From Spirogloea muscicola (Eukaryota): DNA of 20,000 nucleotides. The DNA is taken from positions 669,481 to 689,480 of the forward strand of contig WELB01000026.1 in assembly GCA_009602725.1 (NCBI GenBank), given 5' to 3'. Positions 5,292 through 20,000 of the stretch are shown here, one piece after another. Both the position numbers and the translations under genes were made by a program. The notes under the pieces are model-generated. The model was not told the DNA's origin. It ran no database searches and worked only from the letters and a program-made list of their open reading frames with translations. The number at the start of each line of letters is the position of its first letter. Within the stretch, counting starts at the first letter, position 1.

Positions 5292-7789
5292 ATGGCTCTG
5301 GCAGCCGCCCTTGCGGCAGCCGCTCGGCAGCTCAGACGATCCACTGCTGCCGTCTCGAGGCCGTCCCTCTGGAGCTCCATTGACGGCGCCCCTTGTGGAA
5401 GCCCCGTCCAGCGACTCTCCACCGCTGCTTCTGTGCACACGCCGCCAGGTGAGACTACTGCCGCAGCGACATCCGGGCGCGTGTCTCAGGCAAGCTGGGT
5501 CAGCGATGCTTCCTGCGGCCTCCGCTGGCCCTTGCGGCGGGCGGGAGCACGGTGAGCACTATGAGGGGTCCAGCTTAGAGCTTCACAGATGGCCGCCGAG
5601 CCTGGCCGAGCTGCTCGACGACCAACATCAGCAGCAAGAGGCACTGCGGAGCAGGTTGACGGGTCCGTCTGTGGAGTTACGTCAGCATGGGTTGAGGGTG
5701 TAGCGTGAGCTACTTACGTGTTGTGGATGACAGAGCGCCCACCACAGACAAATGAGCTGAGGCGACAGCGAGCCTGTGCCTTGTGTCGTCCCCTTGTTCA
5801 GCCCCCACCTGTGCTACTTTAGTTCACAGCTTATGACAGGCAAAATTGCGCTTGTAACCCACAGAAACACTGGTGGGTGCGGTACCAGGCGCAGAGAGGC
5901 GGCCTCCTGGGTGGTCCATCCTTGTGCTGCTCCTGCCCCCTGCTGCTGCGTTCGGCCTTGGCACGTGGCAGCTTAAGCGGCGGCAGCAGAAGGTCTTGCC
6001 TCTCCTGAACCTCAACGACCTCAGTCCATTAGAGCTCTGCTTTGTGACAGCCGTCTACTCGATTGTTCTTGTATGCCACTCTGGAAATTTCAGCCAACGT
6101 AGTGCAGAGGTTGTGCTTATGTATGTAGTTGCTCCACAAAGTAAAGTGTGCAAAGGATCAAAAGCCGACATGCGGTGTTGGCTTGAGCAGCTTCGTTGGT
6201 CCAGTGCAAGGACTGCTCTTGCACTGAAGCTCCCGCTTTGCAGCAGTTTTTTTCCAAAAAGCTGCACGCAATCTGCTAGTGGAAGTCCAATATGATGCCT
6301 TCTTGATCCTAAAGCTGCAGTCAGAGATGTGCATTGCTTGAGCAGGTGGACCTTCTCCAGCAACGTGAGCAGCGGCTACAAGAGGAGCCAGTGCCCCTGA
6401 CTCTGGAGCTGAAGCTTGCTGCCAGCAGCAGCCAGCACGTGGGAGCCAGCCCATTTGAGTATCGGAGGGTGGTCTGCGAGGGCATGCTCGACGAGGCACG
6501 ATCACTGTTTGTCGGGCCACGGGGGCGCAGCGTCGGCGGCATCACCGAGAAGGGCTACTATCTCATCACGCCGGTCATCCCCGCCGCTGAAAACGGCCTG
6601 TGGTAGAAGCTCCAGGTCCTCAGCTCGCTTGCGGCGTGCAGCATCAAAGACTTCCGCAGTGCCGCCTAGACTTAAGCTCTGCAGGTCGATGTTGGTATGT
6701 GAACGATGGGGATGACTTTAGGGATTAGTTTGATGTGTAACCCAACAGCCATGACCACTGTTTTCAATGGCGGTGCAGCTCGCGGCCACCGGTCCTCGTC
6801 AACAGGGGCTGGGTGACTGAGGCATGGAGGAGGGAGCATGACCACAACCAGGGCGTCGATCAAGATGCGGCCGTGCCGGGGCGCACCTTGACGGCCAGTC
6901 CATCGGGCTCTGTCTCTGTTGTTAAAGGCGATAATGGGCACCAAAGGAGCTGGTGGCACTTCTGGAGCAGCGGACATGAAGCTACAAGCGCTGCGGTGGA
7001 GGTGTGTGCCCACTGTAGCAGCAAAGCCGGTGGCAGGCATTGACAGCCCGCTGCACACGGAGAAACCACTGCGAAAGAAGTTTTGTGGTAACACGACAAT
7101 GGGTTGTGCTGGCTGGGCAGGGCACGGCACCGCCACCTGTGACGAGGATCTGTGGCATTGTACGCTCGAGCGAGCAGCCGAGCGCCTTTGTGCCGGCAAA
7201 TGTGCCGACCGCCGGGCAGTGGTTCTATTTGGACGTACCTGCCATGGCAGCCGCCTGCGGCCTGCCACCGGGCACGCTACTAGTGGACGCAATCAGAGAT
7301 GGTGGCGCCTTGGAGGCGACGTTGCAAGGGTCGCCGATTCCCAAGGACCCATCGGAGCTCGTTCGGCAGTCTGTGATGCCACAGGACCATCTCAACTATA
7401 CTCTCACCTGGTAGGACAACGGCGGTGCATCACATAATAGAGTCGTCAAAGCTTGCTTATATGTAAGCCGTGGCCCGCCTCAGTGAATTCAGGAAGTGAT
7501 TTGAGCGTGGCCTCTCCATCTCACACTACCTGCCTTCCTTTACTTAATCGCTAGCACAGTGGTTGTAGTTGGACACTGCTTGGAGTTGGACTGGTATTGC
7601 ATAGGATGTCGAATCCAAGACCCTTTACGCATGGGCCATGGTTCAGCCGTATCTGAGAAAGTCATGTGTATGAGCCTTTCCTTGAGAATGCACAGGTACA
7701 CTCTCTCAGCAGCCACGGCCTACATTGCATATCGGCGGCTACATATGGTGCGGGCGCCCATGATGACCAAGGGAAAGCGACAGCAATGA
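5292..7789 (+). CDS. SURF1: SURF1/Shy1 cytochrome c oxidase assembly protein, 6 exons, ~382 aa
   Basis: Exons 5292-5448, 5865-5992, 6346-6602, 6779-7001, 7121-7410, 7696-7789; all GT-AG and phase-consistent (1149 nt). Ala/Arg/Ser-rich transit-peptide-like N-terminus; FGLGTWQLKRRQQK; EYRRVVCEG...FVGPRGRS...GYYLITP; VLVNRGWV; FVPANVP...WFYLDVPAMA; HLNYTLTWYTLSAAT. Confidence 0.95.
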
Positions 7790-9157: not shown

Positions 9158-9221
9158 AGAAGAAGTGGCTCTCCCAATGGGGGCAAGGGCTGTGAGAAGC
9201 CAGCCCGAAAAGAATTGACAA
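9158..9221 (+). repeat. 64-bp dispersed repeat, identical to 19812-19875, flanked by an 8-bp direct repeat (TTTGCAGA)
   Basis: agaagaagtggctctcccaatgggggcaagggctgtgagaagccagcccgaaaagaattgacaa occurs at both loci. TTTGCAGA lies at 9153-9160 and 9223-9230. Confidence 0.9.
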
Positions 9222-9766: not shown

Positions 9767-12172
9767 ATGGCGGCGGCGGGCGGCGGCGACGGCCGCGGCG
9801 GCGCGGAGGCGTGGCTGCGGGGCCGGCTGCTGGCGCTGGCGGAGGCCGGTGGCGGCGGCGGGCTGGACACCGACATGGCCGGCAGCCTGGCGGCCTACTG
9901 CGCCGCCGCCACGCCCGAGCAGGCCGCCGAGTACCTCCTGGTGAGCTCCCCCAACCGCTCCACTTCCCTCGCCGCGGTGCCACCGGGCGGAATCGAACCC
10001 TGGTGCTCAGATTCCAAAAGTCGAGTCCAAGCACAAGCGACCGCAGCTGCGTCGCCTGTAGTCGTGGATGGTCTCTTCCAGTTCACATTCCTGCCACCTG
10101 AGATCGATTCTCTGAACCCAACTTACCTCGTGGCAAATCTTGACCTCGGAAGCACTGGCGGCACTGCTGGGCCCCCCGCAGAACATCGTTGGGGACAGCG
10201 ACGCGACGCGGGCGATCACCGCCGAGTACGCCGCCAATTGGGCGCCGGCGTCTGCGCCCAGTGGCGGCGCCAGTGGCGGCGGCAACGGCAGCAGGATGCG
10301 TGCGTACGTCAAGCCCCGTGAGGAGGGCGACTACATGGTCGCAGGGCGCAAGGCTCGGGACAGCTCCAGCGGCACTGGCGTCAAGGCGACGGTGCCGCCG
10401 CTGGTGATAGCCGGCGCTGGCGCAGCTAGCGGCAGCGCGAAGAAGACCCGCAGAGGCCGCGCTGTAGAGCTGGCGGAGCTGGGCGCCGGCCGCGCGCTGC
10501 TGCCGCGCCACGGCCCCTGCGAGTGCCAGGCATCGCGACACCGCCTGGTCGCCAATTGCCTCTCCTGCGGCCGTATAGTGTGTGAGCAGGTCGAGCTCCA
10601 CCCCCCCATCTCCTCTTGGCGTCAACCAGGACGGTCTGACGCCAGAAGGAAACCTAAACCCTAAGCCCTAAACCCCTAACCCCTAAAAGCCAAACCCAAA
10701 ACCTTTGAGCCTGACTTTGATCCATACTGGGAGTAATGCAGAGCTCCACCGAAATGAAGCATGCTATCTGATTGTCTTTACGGCAGGAGGGCGAGGGCCC
10801 CTGCGAAACGTGTGGCGCGCTGGTGCTGCGTGATGGCAGTAGCTATGCTGGGTTGGATGAGCAGGCGCTCCTGCCCCCGGAGCTTGCAAATGAGGCAGAG
10901 GCCAAGGCAGTTGCCTTCAAGGTCGGGCTCTGTTGAGAAGTTGAGCGGCTCTCAGATAACATGAACGCATTGACATGTCTGTGAGGTTGATTACCATCTT
11001 CAAGTTGCAGCATGTCCACATCGATCACCCAGCACGCAGTGGATGTGGTTTGTAGCTTAATGGTTATATGGACCTGAAGTGGATGCCTTTGATACTATAT
11101 GGAGATAAATGGACACTTCTAGCGCAAAGCTTAAAATAGCAGCTCCAGATCTCATCTTAACGAGGATTTTGTGGCTTGTGGTCTACAGGATCGCCTAGTG
11201 GAGTATGACCGGACTGCGGCAAGGAGGACTGAAGTCATTGACGACCAGAGTGACTATTTCCAGATTGACAGCAACGCCTGGCTAAGTGAGGAGGTAAGGC
11301 AGCCCGACTCTCCAGCATGCTGCATCTCACAAGGGCTCCAGTAGAGGTTTGGATGTCACTGCCATACTTGGCTGGCAATTTGATTAAGTAGCCACAGCCT
11401 GGCCTCAAGCCTTTTGCAATCACCCTTGTATCACGAGTGCAGGAGAAGCTGCAGCTCCAGAAGCGCCAGGAAGACATGGAGCGCACTACGGAGGAGCGCA
11501 AGAAGCGCGTTGTTGTTACATTTGATCTCCTCGGACGGAAGGTGCTGTTTCCATGCTCAACAGAGCAGTGTGTGCATAGGCTCCATCTTCAGAGTCTAGC
11601 ACCGCGTATCTGTGATGGCGTGTCTCCCCTGCTTGTGGAAAGGCCTTTGGCTGTAGCGAGTCAGGGGTTGCAAGTTTCACCATTGAGGTGTACAATGAAG
11701 ATCTTGTAAATGCTACACTTCTTCTGGCATTGACATGGACTTGACATTACTGCAGTATTTGCATGATCAGCAAGAAGTGAGAAATATGGCTTCTGCTCTG
11801 CATGCGTGCCAGGTTGTGATGGCGGAATCTGAGCAACTGGGCGACGTAGCAGAAGAGGCGGCCCTGCTCAGCACAAGCACATCCAGCGGCGCCACTCAGG
11901 ATCTCAGCATGCGAGTGAAGCCGAGCTCAAGCCTCTGCATTCCACCTCCCATTTTCGTAGACGTGAAAGCTTTGGGCAAGTCTCATATACAGACCACCAA
12001 GGCTGAAGGTGCGGTCAAGAGCAGCGGTGCTGCTTCAGGGGTTGGGCGGGGCCCATCAAAAGCATCGTGGATGCGGGTTCAGCACGATGACCCCTTTGTG
12101 GAAGCAGTGGGTGTGATTTCACAGGAGGCCAGCCTTAGCAAAGTAGCAGGTGCTACTGCAGCCGAGGCATGA
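9767..12172 (+). CDS. TRIP4: Activating signal cointegrator 1 / RQT4 homologue with zf-C2HC5 zinc finger, 6 exons, ~426 aa
   Basis: Exons 9767-9940, 10182-10589, 10787-10921, 11189-11293, 11443-11541, 11813-12172; all phase-0 GT-AG (1281 nt). CECQASRHRLVANCLSCGRIVCEQ|EGEGPCETCG, DRLVEYDRTAARRTEVIDDQSDYF, VVVTFDLLGRKV, RVQHDD. No ASCH domain seen. Confidence 0.92.
10650..10703. repeat. Degenerate plant-type telomere-like (CCCTAAA)n tract in TRIP4 intron 2
   Basis: aaacctaaaccctaagccctaaacccctaacccctaaaagccaaacccaaaacc; includes an exact AAACCCTA telo-box. Confidence 0.75.
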
Positions 12173-12519
12173 GAGGTGAACCTTTGCTGGGCAGCTGAAG
12201 ATTGGTTGCACAGCCAGCGGGTTGCATACGTCTTTGGAGCAGGTCACTTCTGGACTAACGTACGTAAGAATTTATATGCTGGAACTTCGTCAAGAAGCTT
12301 CAGTCCTTCACTTGAGGTTCACTGCCAAGAAACCCTTCTCAACTGCCTTCCGCATGGCAAGAAGTTGTAGATGCCTCCTCGACTGTCGCGCGAGACCAAA
12401 GTTTGGCTCATTGCTGGATGAGTCGTGTTTGCTCGTGCAAAATTACCAAGGAAGGAATCTACCTCACGACCATTAGTTGCTGTTGTCTATGTATTGCAGG
12501 TTGCGCGATGTGATGAAAC

Positions 12520-12555
12520 TGTTGACGTGCTTGGCCTTGTTGACGTGCTTGGCCT
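12520..12555. repeat. Perfect 18-bp tandem duplication
   Basis: tgttgacgtgcttggcct x2. Confidence 0.85.
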
Positions 12556-13602
12556 CTCAATGTGTTGTTGTGAGCTTGACCATAATCGGCTTGGAGGCTC
12601 ATCTGGTGGGACATCACATTAGCAAAGGCGAGGCTCGCGAAGTGATCTAGCATTTTTGAGAATCCTCCCCGCCGCCATTTGCGACCATACCAGCAAAGGC
12701 TGTGAAGGTGCGGGCACCACCTGCTGGACTAGTCAAGAAGAGTGGATGGCAGGCAGGCAAAAGGCGGATGAGTGATCTCCATAGCTGAAATATACAGGAA
12801 ACAATCTGATGGAGAAGCGGTGGGATGATGGACATTTGAGGTCTAGTATGGATCAGGGACTATGGCCTTATTGTTCATGTCCTTCACTTGGTGGCTGGGT
12901 GAGGAGAACATGTTGCACAAAGAAGGCGCCAACAAGAGAAAGGACGCCCCAATTTGGAAGCGGGAGCAGCACCTCACGCTAATTATGTATAGGTATCACT
13001 TCGTGATGCTGTCCTCTACCACCATCATTTTCCTGCTCAACAATCTCTTCGAACGTACTTCACACGCATGACTCCCTTGGAGGAGGTCCGCATCCCTTTG
13101 CCCACCCTTACAGCTGCAGGCTCCGACCACGATCACACAATCATGTCAGCCCAGCGTAGGGCAACTGAAGGCGCCAGATCTGGCCGCAGCGCACAATGTT
13201 GGAAGGTGGGATTATATAGTGGGGTCTTGAGAGACAGAGAGCGGTGTTCTCACGGACGAGGAGCTGGGACGCGGGGACACAAGGAATTGCTCCTTGGTAG
13301 GAGACGGTGGGTCTGAGAGGAAGTCCCAGGAGTGGGAAACCAGCGGCAGTAATCGGGGCTAAACCGGGTTACCATCGATACGCTATATGTACCTGCGGGA
13401 TGACCGGGTTACCGTGGATAAGCTGGATTAGCGCGGAAGTAGTCAACAAATCATTCTACACGTGATCAACAGAGTAAAACCAACAAGTGTAAAAGGAGAC
13501 TTGGCGATATTTAGATGATAGACTCTGCAGAATATATAGAGCACAGAAGGAATGGCAAATATATTTATCTGATAATTAGAGCACAGCTGGCGAATATAAT
13601 GT

Positions 13603-14737
13603 CTATTCCCATTAGGATTCGGGATCGACTACTATGCAGAATCTGCATGGAATAGATCAGAATGGCGTCAATTCGGAATACGCATAGCGATGCTTCCTCT
13701 GTTGAAGGGAAAAAGGCATAGTGGTATACCAGCTTGCAGCAGCATTGTCATTGACACTTTTCCCAAAGGTAGGAAATATTCGGAAGCTGATGGGGATTGC
13801 TCTGCTCTGATATATACAGACATATATACAGACCGGGGAGAACCAGATGGCTTCTATCGAGGCCGAGGAGGCACCAGTACGGGAGATAACACACTCCGCA
13901 TGCCCATCCTCCAGCAAGAGGAGCCTGGCAGTTTCAGGCGTGGTGGACAACCACGTACCACCAAGAACAGCACGACTTATCCAGCCGATACCTTCTGCAG
14001 GGCTCTCCAATGTGGCTTTGGAGGAGATGGAGGTGGATCGGAGTATTGATTTTATCAAGGCTTCCGGGCTGTGTTTTCCCTTGGTCGCCCACATGCGTGC
14101 AGAAGACGCCTGGTTGGCGCAGACGCTTGCAACGAAGACGCCACCTCTTGCATCGAATGCAGGCCATGAGGATGTGGAGTCAATCGGTACTTTCTACAAT
14201 GGTATCATTCCTTGGACGGTGCCTGATGAGGGTATCGTTTTGGTTGAAGTGTTCGGGGGTACTGCCAATGGGTTTCGAGCCGCTATGTCCAGCCACATCA
14301 AAGTAGCTCGTTATGTCTACATTGACAATGACTCAGCAGCCAGGGGTTTAGCCCAATAGGTGTAGGTAGAGGCTTCAATTGACCTAGAGACGGCTTTATT
14401 CAAGCCCTTCATGAAGTTTCTGCATGCAGTATAAGCGCGGCAGACAAAGAACCTTGGCTATATTGTGGAGAACGTGGAGCCACGGAAGAATCATCTGAAG
14501 GCGCGATTCGACTGCAACTCCGTTTGTGATGTACTCGGGCCTTACACCGTTTTGGACGCCGCTTATCTGGGTTCTTTGACAGATCGACGCCGTGTCCATT
14601 GGACCAACCTTGCCCCGGCGAAGATGCTGCAGGCATGCATCAACCGACAACGTCGCCCTTCCAAACCTGTACGCCTATATGGCTTTTGGACCCAGGTCGC
14701 GGTGTTGCGCCTGTGGACTACAACCGTCGACTTTTTC
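13603..14737 (+). mobile_element. Retrotransposon pol fragment: protease C-terminus, linker, C5 DNA methyltransferase (decayed)
   Basis: 13603-14131 is a close inverted copy of 15876-16394 (GIDYYAESAW...MLPLLKGKR...AEDAW.AQTLA), with a 12-bp duplication atatatacagac. ORF 13847-14359 continues in frame into methyltransferase motif I. Confidence 0.88.
14243..14737 (+). pseudogene. DNMT3-like C5-cytosine DNA methyltransferase domain remnant encoded in retrotransposon pol
   Basis: Motif I-like VEVFGG (14243-14260); motif II-like IKVARYVYIDND; motif V-like D.ETALF; motif VI ENV (14468-14476); motifs VII/VIII LDAAYLGSLTDRRRVHWTNL (to ~14611). Catalytic motif IV (PC) is absent, consistent with a deletion near 14357-14380. 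Stops TAG 14357-14359 and TAA 14432-14434; truncated by an LTR at 14738. Confidence 0.85.
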
Positions 14738-15340
14738 CAGTAAAGCTTGTGCAAGCAACTAGATGTCAACAAATACTCAATGCAGGTGTGAGATCGATCG
14801 TGTAGTCCGATATTGATTGATAGTCACCCGGTCGGTAACCAATTTGATAGTAACTCGAGCCAGAACGGGGGCCTAGCCCAGCCTATTTGGTAAGGGGGGC
14901 CAAGCCCAGGCCTATCTACTTCGGACAGGCTCCAAGCCTTGATGTAGACGGGGGTCCAAACAAGATGCAATCTGCACTCTTGCAAGGAACAAAGATGCTG
15001 GATATATGCAACACCTCAGAGCAACGCAAGGTTACGCTTGTCAGACGTTCAACAACACACGAGGTCACAATCTTTGTGTCTTACCACGTGTGTCCGGTCT
15101 TACGCGCCGGTGACAGAAGTCTTCTCCGCTAAGTCTCTCCCTCTGGCTTTTGCCGTTGTCCCCGCCGCTGTTGCCGCTGCTGTTGCCGTCGCTGCTGCTG
15201 TTACTGCCGCCGCTGCCGCCGTTGCTGCTGCTGCTGCCGTCACTGTCGTCGCCACCTCCGCTGTTACAACAACGAGCGTAGCGTGCGCGTTCAGTGTCAC
15301 GCCAAGAGGGCGTGGCACAGGTGTCCGCATAATAGAGAGC
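14738..15340 (-). repeat. Rearranged 3' LTR remnant (U5-like part colinear, R-like part inverted)
   Basis: 14738-15119 is a direct match to 18608-18989; 15117-15340 matches the reverse complement of 19005-19238. Confidence 0.85.
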
Positions 15341-15875
15341 ATCTTCAAGGAGGTTTTCTTTGAAGGTGTTCTATATGAAGCCTCTAGAACTGATTATTAT
15401 GTCTTAATCCTAACGCTATCGAGGGCCAGAACGTAGATTAGGTCTTCTGACCCTTTGCGTACCAGGGTTCAAGAAGCGACTGTCTTGACCCCTAGAGGTT
15501 TACATAAGATAGTTATTCGGAGTCGAATAGATTCCAATCCATATCTTCTTCATCGAGAAGACCATTAGAGGAGTCCAAATGCTCTATCAATTTCTCGATT
15601 ATAAGGCCTGCCATGCCTAGATGCTTGTATTCAGGTGTAGGGGTTTCTAAACTAGATCTGTTTTCATTTAATAGATGGATAGATCTAGCCATTAAGTGAG
15701 CTTGGAAATTTACTCGAATTCTTCCGAAGAGTGCGGATAAAGCAGGATCCTTGATATCCGGATACCCAGAACCCTGCCATTCATAGAACCCTTGAACAGT
15801 AATTGGATACTGTAAAGAGGGTTCTTCTTTTTGTGGGACGAGCGGGAAATCCTCCTGCTCTATCCTTCCAGACGC

Positions 15876-16394
15876 TGCAAGCGTCTGCGCCGACCAGGCG
15901 TCTTCTGCACGCATGTGGGCGACCAAGGGAAAACACAGCCTGGAAGCCTTAATCAAATCAGAATTCCGATCCACCTCCGTCTCCTCCAAAGCCACATTGG
16001 AGAGCCCTGCAGAAGGTATCGGCTGGATAAGTCGTGCTGTTCTTGGTGATACAGGGTTGTCCACCACGCCTGAAACTGCCAGGCTCCTATTGCTGGAGGA
16101 TGGGCATGCGGAGTGTGTTATCTCTCGTACTGGTGCCTCATCGGCCTCGATAGAAGCCATCTGGTTCTCCCCTTTGTCTGTATATACCAGAGCAGAGCAA
16201 ACCCCATCAGCTTCCGAATATTTCCTACCTTTGGGAAAAGTATCAATGACAATGCCGCTGCAAGCTGGTATACCACTATTCCTTTTTCCCTTCAACAGAG
16301 GAAGCATCGCTTTGCGTATTCCGGATTGACGCCATTCTGGTCTATACCATGCAGATTCTGCATAGTAGTCGATCCCGGATCCTAATGGGATTAG
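15876..16394 (-). repeat. Post-protease linker, inverted copy of 13603-14131
   Basis: ORF 15513..16535(-) shares MLPLLKGKR.SGIPACS.IVIDTFPKGRKYSEADG and MASIEA.EAPVREITHSACPSSS...AQTLA with ORFs 13690(+) and 13847(+). Confidence 0.9.
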
Positions 16395-16698
16395 GATCTC
16401 AGTTCCCAACAAGACATCATAAGTATCAGCCCTCGTGATGAGACACCGCGGTGAACGAGGTGCATACTTCAGAATCATCAGCATGCAACTTGATACACAA
16501 TGGTTTTTTAGTGACACCCACGACAGTGTCTGCACCGCCGGTTGCTATCCTGATCTTCAAGGTACTAGCACTGATGTCGTCCTTCCCCAGACGGAGTTTC
16601 TTGGCAAAAAGTTGGCTAATAAGGATAGGTTGTGCACCTGTATCAAGTAGCACCAAGGCAGGGGTTGCTACATTGGTATCTGTAGCCAACTTCACCAC
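16330..16698 (-). pseudogene. Retropepsin-type aspartic protease (frameshifted)
   Basis: ALVLLDTGAQPILIS (DTG at 16644-16636) and flap-like IRIATGG; after a frameshift, YDVLLGTEIL. In-frame TGA upstream at 16699-16701. Confidence 0.9.
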
Positions 16699-17089
16699 TC
16701 ACTTGGTATTGTCAAGCATGGCCACCGCGGCGATGATCTCTGTACGCTCAGTCGGAGATCTGCAAGGTTTGATTTCAGGAGCTGACAGAGTCAGAGGGTA
16801 AATTGCGACCATGACAGGTGAGTGCTGTACCACCTGTGATGCGACAACATTTTCAACTTCTCTGGTTGTCAGAAGCATGTCATGCAAAGTCTCCTTAGAT
16901 ACACCAATATCATTCAAGCTGAGAACCGGTGCCTCAAGCATTCTGGTAAGCAGTACTTTAGTAGGCACTGGAAATTTAACAAGCATATCTGCACTGGTAG
17001 CAACCTTCGGAGTCGAGCTACGAACGGGTACAACAATATCACCAGTATCCTTGACTCTGAAACTGGCTGGGTATCGAGCCGTTCCACAA

Positions 17090-18534
17090 GGTGCTTGCTG
17101 AGTAGTTCTATCTCTCCCCTCCTCAGGGGATTGTGAGATGAAGAACCCTGTACGTCTGCAGCTTGAGGGACAAGGTTGGCAACAAGAGCATACCCCTCAT
17201 AGTTGCCCATCTCCTCTTCCTCATCGACGTAGATTTTCTGAGGATTGTATTCCTCGTCTTCTGGGTAATCACCTGCTTCAGGCATGGCAGTAGAAACGAC
17301 TTCAGTCTTGCTATGCTGTTTAGCCAAAGCAAGCTGCTTAGTAAATTCCGCTACCTGCCTCGCCATCTGTTCATATCTGGAGTCAGGTCTATCAGTCGAG
17401 GTTCTGGCAGACAACCCCCTCCCAATAGCACTTTTATTTCTCAAAGCTACAGGCCTCTTATCAGGGAACTTTCCCCAACACTGCTGTTCTAAATGCCCAG
17501 ATTTGGAGCAAAATGAGCATATGGCACCAGATTTCTGATGCCTCTGGGTACAATCTTTCTTAGTGTGCCCTTGCTTACCACATCCATGACACTCTACGAC
17601 TGTCCTAGTCACAGACACGTCTGCTGAACGTGTAGCGACTGGATAGGCTACAAAAGCCTATCCAGTTTTCATACCTCGTGCCTTGTCCGGTGACGAAGCA
17701 GTCGGTTCATAGCAGATGTGCCTTGAGAACCTGCAAAATGTTCATCGGCACATTGTAATTTAAAGTCGTCAGTCTCCTTGTCAAGCATGACTCGGAAGAC
17801 GTCTTCTATGTCGTAGTCCTTCTTGTTAAGATACTGCCGACGCATCATCAGAAGTCCCTGTACTTGACGCAACCCCTTTCCTGCGACAACGCGCAAGAAC
17901 TGATATGCAAGGTCCTTCTGACTTATCTGTGTGTGAGACTGTTCAATCACTTTTAGAAACCGGTAATAACAAACAGTCACAGACTCGTCTTGCGAGCAAT
18001 TCGCATCAATGCCTGCTGGTGAATAATAGTGTCCTCAGGGAAGTGGTGAGCAAGACGATTAAACATCTTGCGTACGGGATCCGTCAGAAGCTGAGGACCT
18101 AGCTGCCTTTCTGCTTCAGATGCATTACTATATACCGGTGTGATCATCTGCAAGATAGTGTCACGCAAACGTCTATAGACATCGCTAGCTTCATGACTGA
18201 GATAACGACTCAGTAAAAGCATAGCATCCTCGCGGCTTATCAGACACTTCTGCATGCGCAGCTCACATATCTCTGCCTCGTAGTGTTCCTCCACTGTTCT
18301 TAGTGAAGAACCACCAGGCGTACCTCTGTACTGTGGACGATCTCCTTGAGACATGATGCGAAGCGGCTGTGGTGTCACCTCTGCTTTTCCTGGAACAGGT
18401 TCAACCGCCGCAGAAACAATGTCCGGAATATCAGCAGCAACTTCAGATATTTCCGCTACGCTATCAATTACTGTAGAAGCAATATCCGGAGTATCAGTCG
18501 GAGTTGCTACTTTACGGCCGGACCTTGAGTCCAT
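17090..18534 (-). pseudogene. Retrotransposon gag with two CX2CX4HX4C zinc knuckles (disrupted)
   Basis: ATG at 18534; consecutive ORF pieces 17977-18534, 17669-17980 and 16914-17618. CHGCGKQGHTKKDC and CSFCSKSGHLEQQC at 17478-17591. The lower boundary is approximate. Confidence 0.88.
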
Positions 18535-18593
18535 ACACTGAATACAAATGAAAATCCAATTGCCGAGAGAATGCAAGAAGTCTTCTTGGCAAG

Positions 18594-18607
18594 AAGTCTT
18601 CTCGGCT
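18594..18607 (-). other. Putative self-priming primer-binding site (AGCCGAGAAGACTT)
   Basis: Directly abuts the LTR end on the element's sense strand, lacks the TGG start of tRNA PBSs, and is the exact reverse complement of the sense-strand sequence at 19238-19225. Confidence 0.65.
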
Positions 18608-19378
18608 CAGTAAAGCTTGTGCAAGCAACTAGATGTTCAACAAATATTCAATGCAGGAGTGAGATCGATCGTGAGTCCAACATAAATAGTCACCCGGTCC
18701 GTAACCAATTTGATAGTAACTCGAGCCAGAACGGGGGCCTAGCCCAGCCTATCTACTTGGTAACGGGGGCCAAGCTCAGGCCTATCTACTCCGGACAGGC
18801 TCCAAGCCTTGATATAGACGGGGGTTCAAACAAGATGCATTTTGCACTCTTGCAAGGAACAAAGATGCTGGATATATGCAACACCTCAGAGCAACGCAAG
18901 GTTATGCTTGTCAGTCGCTCAACAACACACAAGGTCACAATCTTTGTGTCTTACCACGTGTGTCCGGTCTTACGCGCCGGTGACGGAAGCTTCTCGGGGG
19001 TACGGCTCTCTAGCGGCTATTACGCGGACACCTGTGCCACGCCCTCTTGGCGTGACACTGAACGCGCGCGCTACGCTCGTTGTTGTAACAGCGGCGGTGG
19101 CGGCGACAGTGACGGCGGCAGCAGCAGCAACGGCGGCAGCGGCGGCAATAACAGCAGCAGCGACGGCAACAGCAGCGGCAGCGGCGGCGGGGACAGCGGC
19201 AAAAGCCAGAGGGAGAGAGAGACCAGCCGAGAAGACTTGTCCCGGCATCGGTCCTCCGCACCCTTATGCTTGGTCAGGAGAAATACATTGCCTAATGGGG
19301 TGAGCTATTCAGCTAATCTGACCCCCCAGGCCTCAAGGTCAGTGTGACCTGAGACGCACTCCTTTGATTGACCTACCA
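18608..19378 (-). repeat. 5' LTR (U3-R-U5), outer boundary uncertain
   Basis: Contains both segments repeated at 14738-15340, a GCN-rich low-complexity tract (~19090-19200) and a TATA-like box. Sequence beyond 19238 has no second copy in the window. Confidence 0.7.
19263..19268 (-). promoter_or_regulatory. TATA-like box (CATAAG) of the LTR promoter
   Basis: Lies 25-30 nt upstream of the inferred transcript start at 19238; non-canonical first base. Confidence 0.35.
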
Positions 19379-19597
19379 TTTCCCACTACTGTCTAGCTAG
19401 CCGCTTACCTATGGCTTGTCTCAGTCCTTAGCACTCCGACTCCTTCAGATCTTGTCCATTCTTTTGGGCTGGCCTCTCCCAGCCACCAGTTAATCTGGCC
19501 GCACTTGCTTCTTGTCGAGAGGTAAATCGCACCTTCCAACGCGCTTTCTCGGGCTTCCTCGGTCTATGATTGAGGGCCTCTCTGTGCTAAACCTGTG

Positions 19598-19700
19598 CGC
19601 CCGCGTCAGGCGGAACGTGTGCAACGATTGGGTGGTACGCCCCGCGTCAAGCGGAAAGTGTGCAACGATTGGGTGGTACGCCCCGCGTTCGGCGGGAAAT
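19598..19700. repeat. 41-bp tandem repeat, ~2.5 copies
   Basis: cgccccgcgtcaagcggaaagtgtgcaacgattgggtggta units start at 19598, 19638 and 19679 (partial). Confidence 0.9.
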
Positions 19701-19811
19701 GGGCGGCAAATGAACTCGAAACGCCAAGTGGTAACTCTGGCGACAACTTAGCACCACTGCTGACCAAAAGCGAGTGGGAGGTCCCCGCGCTCGCGTCTTC
19801 TCTTGACACTA

Positions 19812-19875
19812 AGAAGAAGTGGCTCTCCCAATGGGGGCAAGGGCTGTGAGAAGCCAGCCCGAAAAGAATTGACAA
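19812..19875 (+). repeat. 64-bp repeat identical to 9158-9221
   Basis: Exact match by direct comparison. Confidence 0.9.
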
Positions 19876-20000
19876 GGTTCGAAGGGGCCAAACTACGAGC
19901 TAAGCAGCGACTGCGGGGCCTGAAGAGGCTATGGCAGAACGGGGGAGGATGGACCACTTAGTAGTTACGAGTGAGGAGCCTCACATCCGACAGACTAGCT

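What the first reader, a model, noticed from the sequence alone, without database searches (positions are those of the whole stretch)
13847..14737. LTR retrotransposon carrying a DNMT3-like C5 DNA methyltransferase fused in frame downstream of its protease
Seen: the linker that follows the DTG protease in the minus copy (15876-16394) recurs here on the plus strand. It reads in frame into VEVFGG...IKVARYVYIDND, followed by ENV and LDAAYLGSLTDRRRVHWTNL, the order of C5-MTase motifs I, II, VI, VII and VIII. RxRxxWxNL resembles DNMT3 (RARYFWGNL). Combining the two copies gives gag(2xCCHC)-PR-linker-DNMT. Known: DNMT-encoding retrotransposons were reported in charophytes and dinoflagellates (de Mendoza et al. 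2018) and are rare elsewhere. Inferred: intact members may methylate their own cDNA or host DNA. This copy is dead (motif IV missing, stops).
Basis: partly seen in the sequence, partly recalled or inferred. Interest (0 to 1): 0.88.

Follow-up and report, generated by a model that had tools for sequence, protein, structure and literature searches.

The report
Dead algal retrotransposon carrying DNA methyltransferase
This is a broken copy of a multi-copy jumping gene, likely from a green alga of the group closest to land plants, that carries a DNA cytosine methyltransferase behind its protease, a kind of element already described in another alga and here likely extended to a new algal class.

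Summary
Observation confirmed and refined. The linker of the minus copy recurs inverted at 13603-14134 (93%) and reads in frame into C5-methyltransferase motifs. This copy has no Pfam hit, but sister copies annotated in Spirogloea muscicola (83-91% identical) hit PF00145 and two keep the catalytic PC. About 177 nt with that motif are deleted here. It is no one-off chimera: a Spirogloea gene model has gag-protease-linker-methyltransferase at one locus, and a distant relative is one unbroken gag-PR-DNMT-RT-RH-INT-PHD frame. DNMT3 affinity is likely but rests on similarity only; no tree was built. The closest known kind is KnitGypsy-Dnmt3 of Klebsormidium (de Mendoza 2018). The scan found such elements before in mosses (unchecked notes). 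New here: a likely Zygnematophyceae host, and a perfect 14-nt match right behind the 5' repeat that fits self-primed reverse transcription. Both window copies are dead and lack RT and integrase. Verdict: new member of a known kind, interest 0.42.

The parts
13603..13812 (+). plus copy: C-terminal end of the protease region (no DTG), out of frame with the linker through a 10-nt insertion
13813..14218 (+). plus copy: linker between protease and methyltransferase; shared with the minus copy up to 14134
14219..14341 (+). C5-methyltransferase motifs I-II (VEVFGG, YIDND); 14153-14344 is 91% identical to P0005 over 64 aa
14341..14382 (+). deletion point (about 177 nt, including the catalytic PC) followed by the remnant of motif IV, QGFSPIGVGRGFN, in another frame
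14387..14737 (+). methyltransferase motifs VI-VIII (ENV, DAAYLG, RRRVHWTNL), 83% identical to P0005 over 86 aa, one stop; cut off at repeat X; motifs IX-X, RT and integrase absent
14738..15126 (-). repeat X, 3' copy (92% to 18608-18995); inferred U5-side part of the terminal repeat
15117..15335 (.). repeat Y, inverted relative to its partner 19017-19238 (93%); begins with a 13-of-14 copy of the 14-nt motif
15336..15872 (-). segment Z, 42% GC, open for 119 codons in frame with the linker, replaces the methyltransferase in the minus copy; no Pfam or PHROG hit; covered by one contig at single-copy-like depth
15873..16790 (-). minus copy: aspartic protease (LLDTG, D codon near 16644; frameshifted, one stop) and linker
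16791..18360 (-). minus copy: gag with two CCHC knuckles (about 17421-17597), split over four frames
18594..18607 (-). 14 nt directly behind the 5' repeat, perfectly complementary to 19225-19238: candidate self-priming primer binding site
18608..19391 (-). 5' terminal repeat of the minus copy (X 18608-18995, Y 19017-19238; outer end at 19391 is tentative, from a 5-nt inverted match only)

Best explanation
The window holds two dead, rearranged copies of one multi-copy retrotransposon family, likely Ty3/gypsy-type and likely from Spirogloea muscicola or a very close relative, whose polyprotein carries a C5-cytosine methyltransferase, likely DNMT3-type, behind the protease. Shown: the linker-methyltransferase fusion, its recurrence in other copies, the intact catalytic motif in sister copies, and loss of that motif here. 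Inferred: in intact members the domain is made as part of Gag-Pol ahead of RT (as in P0007), is packaged in the particle, and would methylate the element's own new cDNA in cis. Also inferred: reverse transcription would be primed by the RNA's own 5' end pairing with the 14 nt behind the 5' repeat. The family is most likely kin of KnitGypsy-Dnmt3 rather than a fresh capture.
For: Sister gene models are named Spirogloea muscicola and are 83-91% identical to the two halves. P0003, P0004 and P0005 pass the PF00145 cut-off of 22 bits with 41, 27.3 and 39.4 bits; P0003 and P0005 read GFPCQGFS. One contig in each of three DNA runs of one sample joins both sides of the deletion with 179 other letters between, and contigs with other letters span the linker-methyltransferase junction near 14134. 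P0002 matches the window's gag, protease and methyltransferase in that order (E 9e-30, 2e-22, 3e-30). P0007 is one 2391-aa frame with CCHC, protease, PF00145, RT, RNase H, integrase and PHD and matches the window's knuckles (E 9e-9), protease (E 2e-9) and P0005 (33% over 191 aa, E 1e-28). The P0007 domain aligns to DNMT3B from motif I to VII and weakly at the C-terminus; all Foldseek rows shown for its model are DNMT3 complexes. de Mendoza 2018 places Dnmt3 domains in the Pol of a Gypsy element of Klebsormidium and shows de novo CG methylation for SymbioDIRS-Dnmt3 domains.
Against: The window has no RT, RNase H or integrase, so Gypsy placement rests on P0007 at about 30% identity. The window's own domain has no Pfam hit. 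By sequence the Spirogloea domain scores slightly better on bacterial M.HhaI and M.HaeIII than on DNMT3A and matches phage methyltransferases at E 9e-10; by structure HaeIII, HhaI and DNMT3 tie within 1 Z, on a model of mean pLDDT 48. KnitGypsy-Dnmt3 domains showed no activity in yeast, called inconclusive by the authors. P0002 is a gene model of 795 aa over 2934 nt, so predicted introns may bridge breaks, and it lacks the PC. No intact Spirogloea copy with RT was seen. The repeats lack TG...CA ends and no target-site duplication was found.
Confidence: 0.8

Rival explanations
1. The family is a separate capture of a methyltransferase (from a phage-like, viral or host source) by a Gypsy lineage, only convergent with KnitGypsy-Dnmt3.
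For: Similarity scores do not separate DNMT3 from bacterial and phage enzymes; Atlas look-alikes include virus and chlorophyte clusters. Repeated independent captures are documented. No Klebsormidium protein turned up in three homolog searches, which are word-limited.
Against: Same host phylum, Gypsy Pol context in P0007, unpermuted motif order and a DNMT3-like short C-terminal part in P0007.
Confidence: 0.14
2. In this alga the family survives only as non-autonomous gag-protease-methyltransferase derivatives, or the methyltransferase is a decaying passenger with no role in replication.
For: All four Spirogloea gene models stop within or just after the methyltransferase, and none reaches RT. 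The two linker copies differ by 2 synonymous and 10 non-synonymous codons of 97, as under neutral decay. The minus copy has lost the domain.
Against: Catalytic motifs are kept between Spirogloea copies and P0007 at about 33% identity, which implies long past selection; gene models of broken copies are expected to be short. This rival concerns present activity and is compatible with the origin given in the best explanation.
Confidence: 0.3
3. The junction is a one-off chimera of a retrotransposon piece with a host or viral methyltransferase gene, or an assembly artefact.
For: The locus is heavily rearranged, and the neighbouring copy joins the same linker to a different stretch.
Against: P0002 and P0007 show the same order elsewhere; contigs of other copies span the junction.
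Confidence: 0.02

Closest known systems
KnitGypsy-Dnmt3 of Klebsormidium nitens (de Mendoza et al. 2018, PMC5890265; abstract, passages, sections 9 and 11 read; figures and main supplement not seen)
   Same: Streptophyte algal host; intronless, unpermuted C5-methyltransferase within the polyprotein of a retroelement with Gypsy-type domains (shown for the relative P0007); terminal repeats that are not a plain LTR pair.
   Different: Host is likely Zygnematophyceae, not Klebsormidiophyceae. Both copies here are dead and lack RT and integrase. The paper describes DIRS-like repeats; the repeats here are rearranged and could not be matched to that plan. I saw no mention of self-priming or of the position relative to the protease ('protease' 0 occurrences in the main text). 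No direct sequence comparison was possible.
SymbioDIRS-Dnmt3 and SymbioLINE-Dnmt (same paper, passages read); EpiLTRs (bioRxiv 10.64898/2026.05.21.726589, passages and section 8 read)
   Same: Retrotransposon-borne cytosine methyltransferases; SymbioDIRS-Dnmt3 domains methylate CG de novo in yeast.
   Different: DIRS elements integrate by tyrosine recombinase; LINE elements carry the domain in ORF1; EpiLTR domains are sister to DNMT4, come with a Dam domain and, in Cymbomonas, sit at the 3' end of pol.
Self-primed LTR retrotransposons: Tf1/Sushi group, Tcn1 and TAR lineages (PMC6317226, PMC4600332; passages read)
   Same: At least 10 nt directly behind the 5' repeat complementary to a stretch inside it; 14 of 14 here.
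   Different: Shown for one copy only, transcript start unknown; those lineages are not described with a methyltransferase in the passages read; P0007 ends in a PHD finger, not a chromodomain.

Membership tests
C5-cytosine methyltransferase (PF00145) | Profile hit above the curated cut-off, this copy | tested here: not met
   0 families at E<=1 for P0001; the best-conserved motif IV is deleted
C5-cytosine methyltransferase (PF00145) | Profile hit and catalytic PC in sister copies of the same family | tested here: met
   3 of 4 sister gene models pass the cut-off; 2 of 4 keep PC
KnitGypsy-Dnmt3 | Unpermuted motif order (unlike plant DRM), no introns | tested here: met
   motif I first, then II, IV, VI, VIII; colinear with P0005 apart from the deletion
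KnitGypsy-Dnmt3 | Domain lies in the same frame as Gypsy RT and RNase H | tested here: inconclusive
   met for the distant relative P0007; the window has no RT
KnitGypsy-Dnmt3 | Domain falls in the Dnmt3 clade by phylogeny | not tested
   no reference sequences obtained; similarity and fold evidence lean to DNMT3 but tie with bacterial enzymes
KnitGypsy-Dnmt3 | DIRS-like split repeats (A-coding-B-A-B) | tested here: inconclusive
   X flanks the coding part directly, Y is inverted between the ends, the 3' end abuts another copy
KnitGypsy-Dnmt3 | Purifying selection on the domain | not tested
   no DNA of sister domains held; only the linker of the two dead copies was compared
Ty3/gypsy LTR retrotransposon | Order PR-RT-RH-INT | tested here: inconclusive
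   met in P0007; not present in the window
Ty3/gypsy LTR retrotransposon | TG...CA termini and target-site duplication | tested here: not met
   shared repeat end reads ...TACTG on the element's strand; no duplication seen; the locus is rearranged
Self-primed LTR elements (criterion of PMC6317226) | At least 10 nt starting 0-5 nt behind the 5' repeat, complementary to a stretch inside it | tested here: met
   18594-18607 against 19225-19238, 14 of 14, starting 0 nt behind the shared repeat end
Self-primed LTR elements (criterion of PMC6317226) | The complementary stretch is the 5' end of the RNA | not testable with these tools
   only contigs, no raw RNA reads, were offered

The most novel reading that the evidence does not exclude
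One ancient, self-primed Gypsy lineage that carries its own DNMT3-type enzyme between protease and RT has been inherited across streptophytes, from Klebsormidium through the Zygnematophyceae (sister of land plants, recalled) into mosses, and pre-methylates its cDNA inside the particle; the Spirogloea family fills the gap between the algal and moss members.
Probability: 0.45. Interest if true: 0.65.

Novelty: new member of a known kind. Interest (0 to 1): 0.42.

Why it matters
Retrotransposons that bring their own silencing enzyme are rare and their purpose is open. The only streptophyte case in the papers I could search is Klebsormidium. A family in the Zygnematophyceae suggests an old, inherited lineage and not a species quirk, and it gives natural copies with an intact catalytic motif, plus one complete relative, for testing activity, which was inconclusive for the Klebsormidium enzyme. 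The candidate self-priming site offers a handle on the odd repeats of these elements. The copy in the window is itself a dead fragment.

Tried and rejected
No genome is held for this window, so copies could not be counted. The profile search over all representatives never ran (queue full on 10 of 10 tries), so no deep alignment or tree exists. Pfam and PDB sequence searches with the window's own translation found nothing relevant. Single-sequence folding of P0005 was useless (pLDDT 37). Two scans of metagenome contigs found no confirmed locus (0 of 275 and 0 of 40 pattern matches), so the host and repeats of P0007 are unknown. A viral-contig scan did not run. Exact look-ups of 4 window translations found 0 in the protein collection, so the host is not proven to be Spirogloea itself. 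No tRNA gene in the window; no Rfam match in 12500-20000. No RNA holder is on record; run X5 is only guessed to be RNA, so nothing is said about expression. No remainder of the plus copy (motifs IX-X, RT) was found beyond the 5' repeat, so simple nested insertion is not shown. I considered 18594-19238 as a MITE with 14-nt inverted ends; less likely because a second copy flanks the other end of the coding part and stops exactly at the motif, but not excluded. Summed contig depth was not used as a copy number. Literature searches with no paper on a Spirogloea or Zygnematophyceae element; most subscription papers, likely including the Spirogloea genome paper (recalled), are outside the library.

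Full report
Observation. The stretch 13603-14134 on the plus strand is the inverted copy of 16394-15873 (93% over 532 nt). Past the point where the two copies part, the plus copy reads on in frame into VEVFGG (14243), YIDND (14318), ENV (14468), DAAYLG (14555) and RRRVHWTNL (14585), with three stops. It ends at 14737, where repeat X begins. The translation has no Pfam hit at E<=1 and no relevant PDB hit.

What the domain is. Homolog searches returned few proteins: 1 of 1466 candidates, 2 of 848 and 2 of 1661. With a cluster look-up they give four gene models named Spirogloea muscicola, a Zygnematophyceae alga. P0005 matches the two halves of the window domain at 91% over 64 aa and 83% over 86 aa; 100 shuffles of the stretch reach at most 25.4 bits against 154. 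P0003, P0004 and P0005 pass the PF00145 cut-off; P0002 does not. P0003 and P0005 keep GFPCQGFS; P0004 has Y for C and P0002 lacks the motif. The window lacks 59 codons of P0005 up to and including the PC; the rest of motif IV survives in another frame at 14341. Sequencing contigs agree: one contig in each of three DNA runs of one sample joins both sides with 179 other letters between, and a contig end in run X5 shows the catalytic motif in front of 14341, read by eye. So the domain is a real C5-cytosine methyltransferase, inactivated in this copy.

Is the fusion typical of the family? Yes. Contigs with other letters span the linker-methyltransferase junction near 14134. P0002 matches the window's gag, protease and methyltransferase in order at one locus, though it is a spliced model of a decayed copy. 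P0007, from an unnamed JGI/IMG record, is one frame of 2391 aa: CCHC 326-341, protease 708-800, PF00145 1006-1120, RT 1436-1639, RNase H 1703-1835, integrase 1953-2121, PHD 2337-2379 (the CCHC and protease hits are below their cut-offs). It matches the window's knuckles, protease and methyltransferase, and P0005 at 33% over 191 aa. The window has no RT, RNase H or integrase. In the minus copy the protease end and linker share one frame, but the linker runs into an unrelated segment Z. Gag and protease there are split over several frames. The two linker copies differ by 2 synonymous and 10 non-synonymous codons of 97. Both copies are dead.

Which class of methyltransferase? DNMT3-type is likely, not shown. 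For: unpermuted motif order; the P0007 domain aligns with DNMT3B over motifs I-VII (E 3e-7) and weakly over the C-terminal motifs; all Foldseek rows shown are DNMT3 complexes. Against: one bacterial enzyme scores as well; P0003 and P0005 score better on M.HhaI (E 3e-4) than on DNMT3A (E 0.15-0.24); the family profile ranks M.HaeIII just above DNMT3A; phage enzymes match at E 9e-10; VIA-align ties HaeIII (Z 12.7, rmsd 3.2, 169 aligned), HhaI (12.0) and DNMT3A (11.9), on a model of mean pLDDT 48. No tree could be built.

Repeats. X (14738-15126 and 18608-18995, 92%) flanks the minus copy directly; Y (15117-15335 and 19017-19238, 93%) is inverted between the ends. On the element's strand the 14 nt directly behind the 5' repeat (18607-18594) are perfectly complementary to 19238-19225 and pair in the folded RNA (z -2.7 on 20 shuffles). 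This meets the self-priming criterion of PMC6317226 (passage); the mechanism is described for Tf1 and Tj1 in PMC4600332 (passages). The naive chance figure of 4e-6 is optimistic, since I found the match by looking at junctions and near copies of the motif occur close by. The 3' repeat stops at the same base, which supports that base as the repeat end. The ends are not TG...CA and no target-site duplication was found. I noted this reading before seeing a similar unchecked note on a moss element; that note is not independent support.

Mechanism. Shown: fusion, recurrence, catalytic motif in sister copies, decay here. Inferred from P0007 and from general Ty3/gypsy biology: the domain is translated in Gag-Pol, enters the particle and would methylate the new cDNA in cis, the model proposed in de Mendoza 2018 (section 11; review file passage). 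That paper showed activity for SymbioDIRS-Dnmt3 domains but none for KnitGypsy-Dnmt3, which it called inconclusive. I give 0.8 to the family-level reading, and less to present activity in this alga.

Comparison and novelty. The closest known kind is KnitGypsy-Dnmt3 (PMC5890265; abstract, passages, sections 9 and 11, and searches in three supplementary files; Figure 4c and the main supplement with the alignments could not be read, so its domain order is unseen). It works like that family; membership is untested for want of sequences. 'KnitGypsy' occurs in 1 paper of the library. Searches for a Spirogloea, Zygnematophyceae or moss report found none. PMC12344493 and the 2026 preprint mention the streptophyte elements without naming Spirogloea in their main text; their supplements were not read and may include it. 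Earlier notes of this scan report such elements in mosses; I could not check them, and sequence look-ups with P0005 and P0006 found no look-alike window.

Verdict. A real feature, correctly read: a dead member of a methyltransferase-bearing retrotransposon family, a new member of a known kind. Its value lies in the likely new host class and the candidate self-priming site. Interest 0.42.

Noticed in passing
window 18594-18607 and 19225-19238: Perfect 14-nt inverted match closing a 645-nt unit; near copies of the motif at 15117, 18578 and (with a gap) 18986 mark the rearrangement points. The inversion of Y in the 3' repeat appears to be bounded by such copies.
   Followed up: partly
window 15336-15872: Segment Z, 42% GC, open for 119 codons in frame with the linker of the minus copy, where the methyltransferase would be; no Pfam or PHROG hit; origin unknown.
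   Followed up: partly
protein P0007 (JGI/IMG, unnamed host): Complete 2391-aa Gag-PR-DNMT-RT-RH-INT frame ending in a PHD finger (E 3e-11), a possible chromatin reader paired with a methyltransferase; 'PHD' has 0 occurrences in PMC6317226.
   Followed up: partly
window 19440-19490 and 19812-19875: Very high-copy short repeats (summed contig depth above 500,000 against about 100 for single-copy contigs); they resemble 71-111 and match 9158-9221.
   Followed up: no
window 5858-6292 and 10116-10661 (+): Exons of host genes: SURF1 N-terminus (E 9e-4) and a C2HC5 zinc finger (E 5e-8).
   Followed up: no
window 13253-13600: Multi-copy stretch directly upstream of the plus copy; not identified.
   Followed up: no
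PMC12344493 (passage): This paper calls the streptophyte DNMT3 elements 'LTR Copia', whereas the 2018 paper it cites says Gypsy.
   Followed up: no
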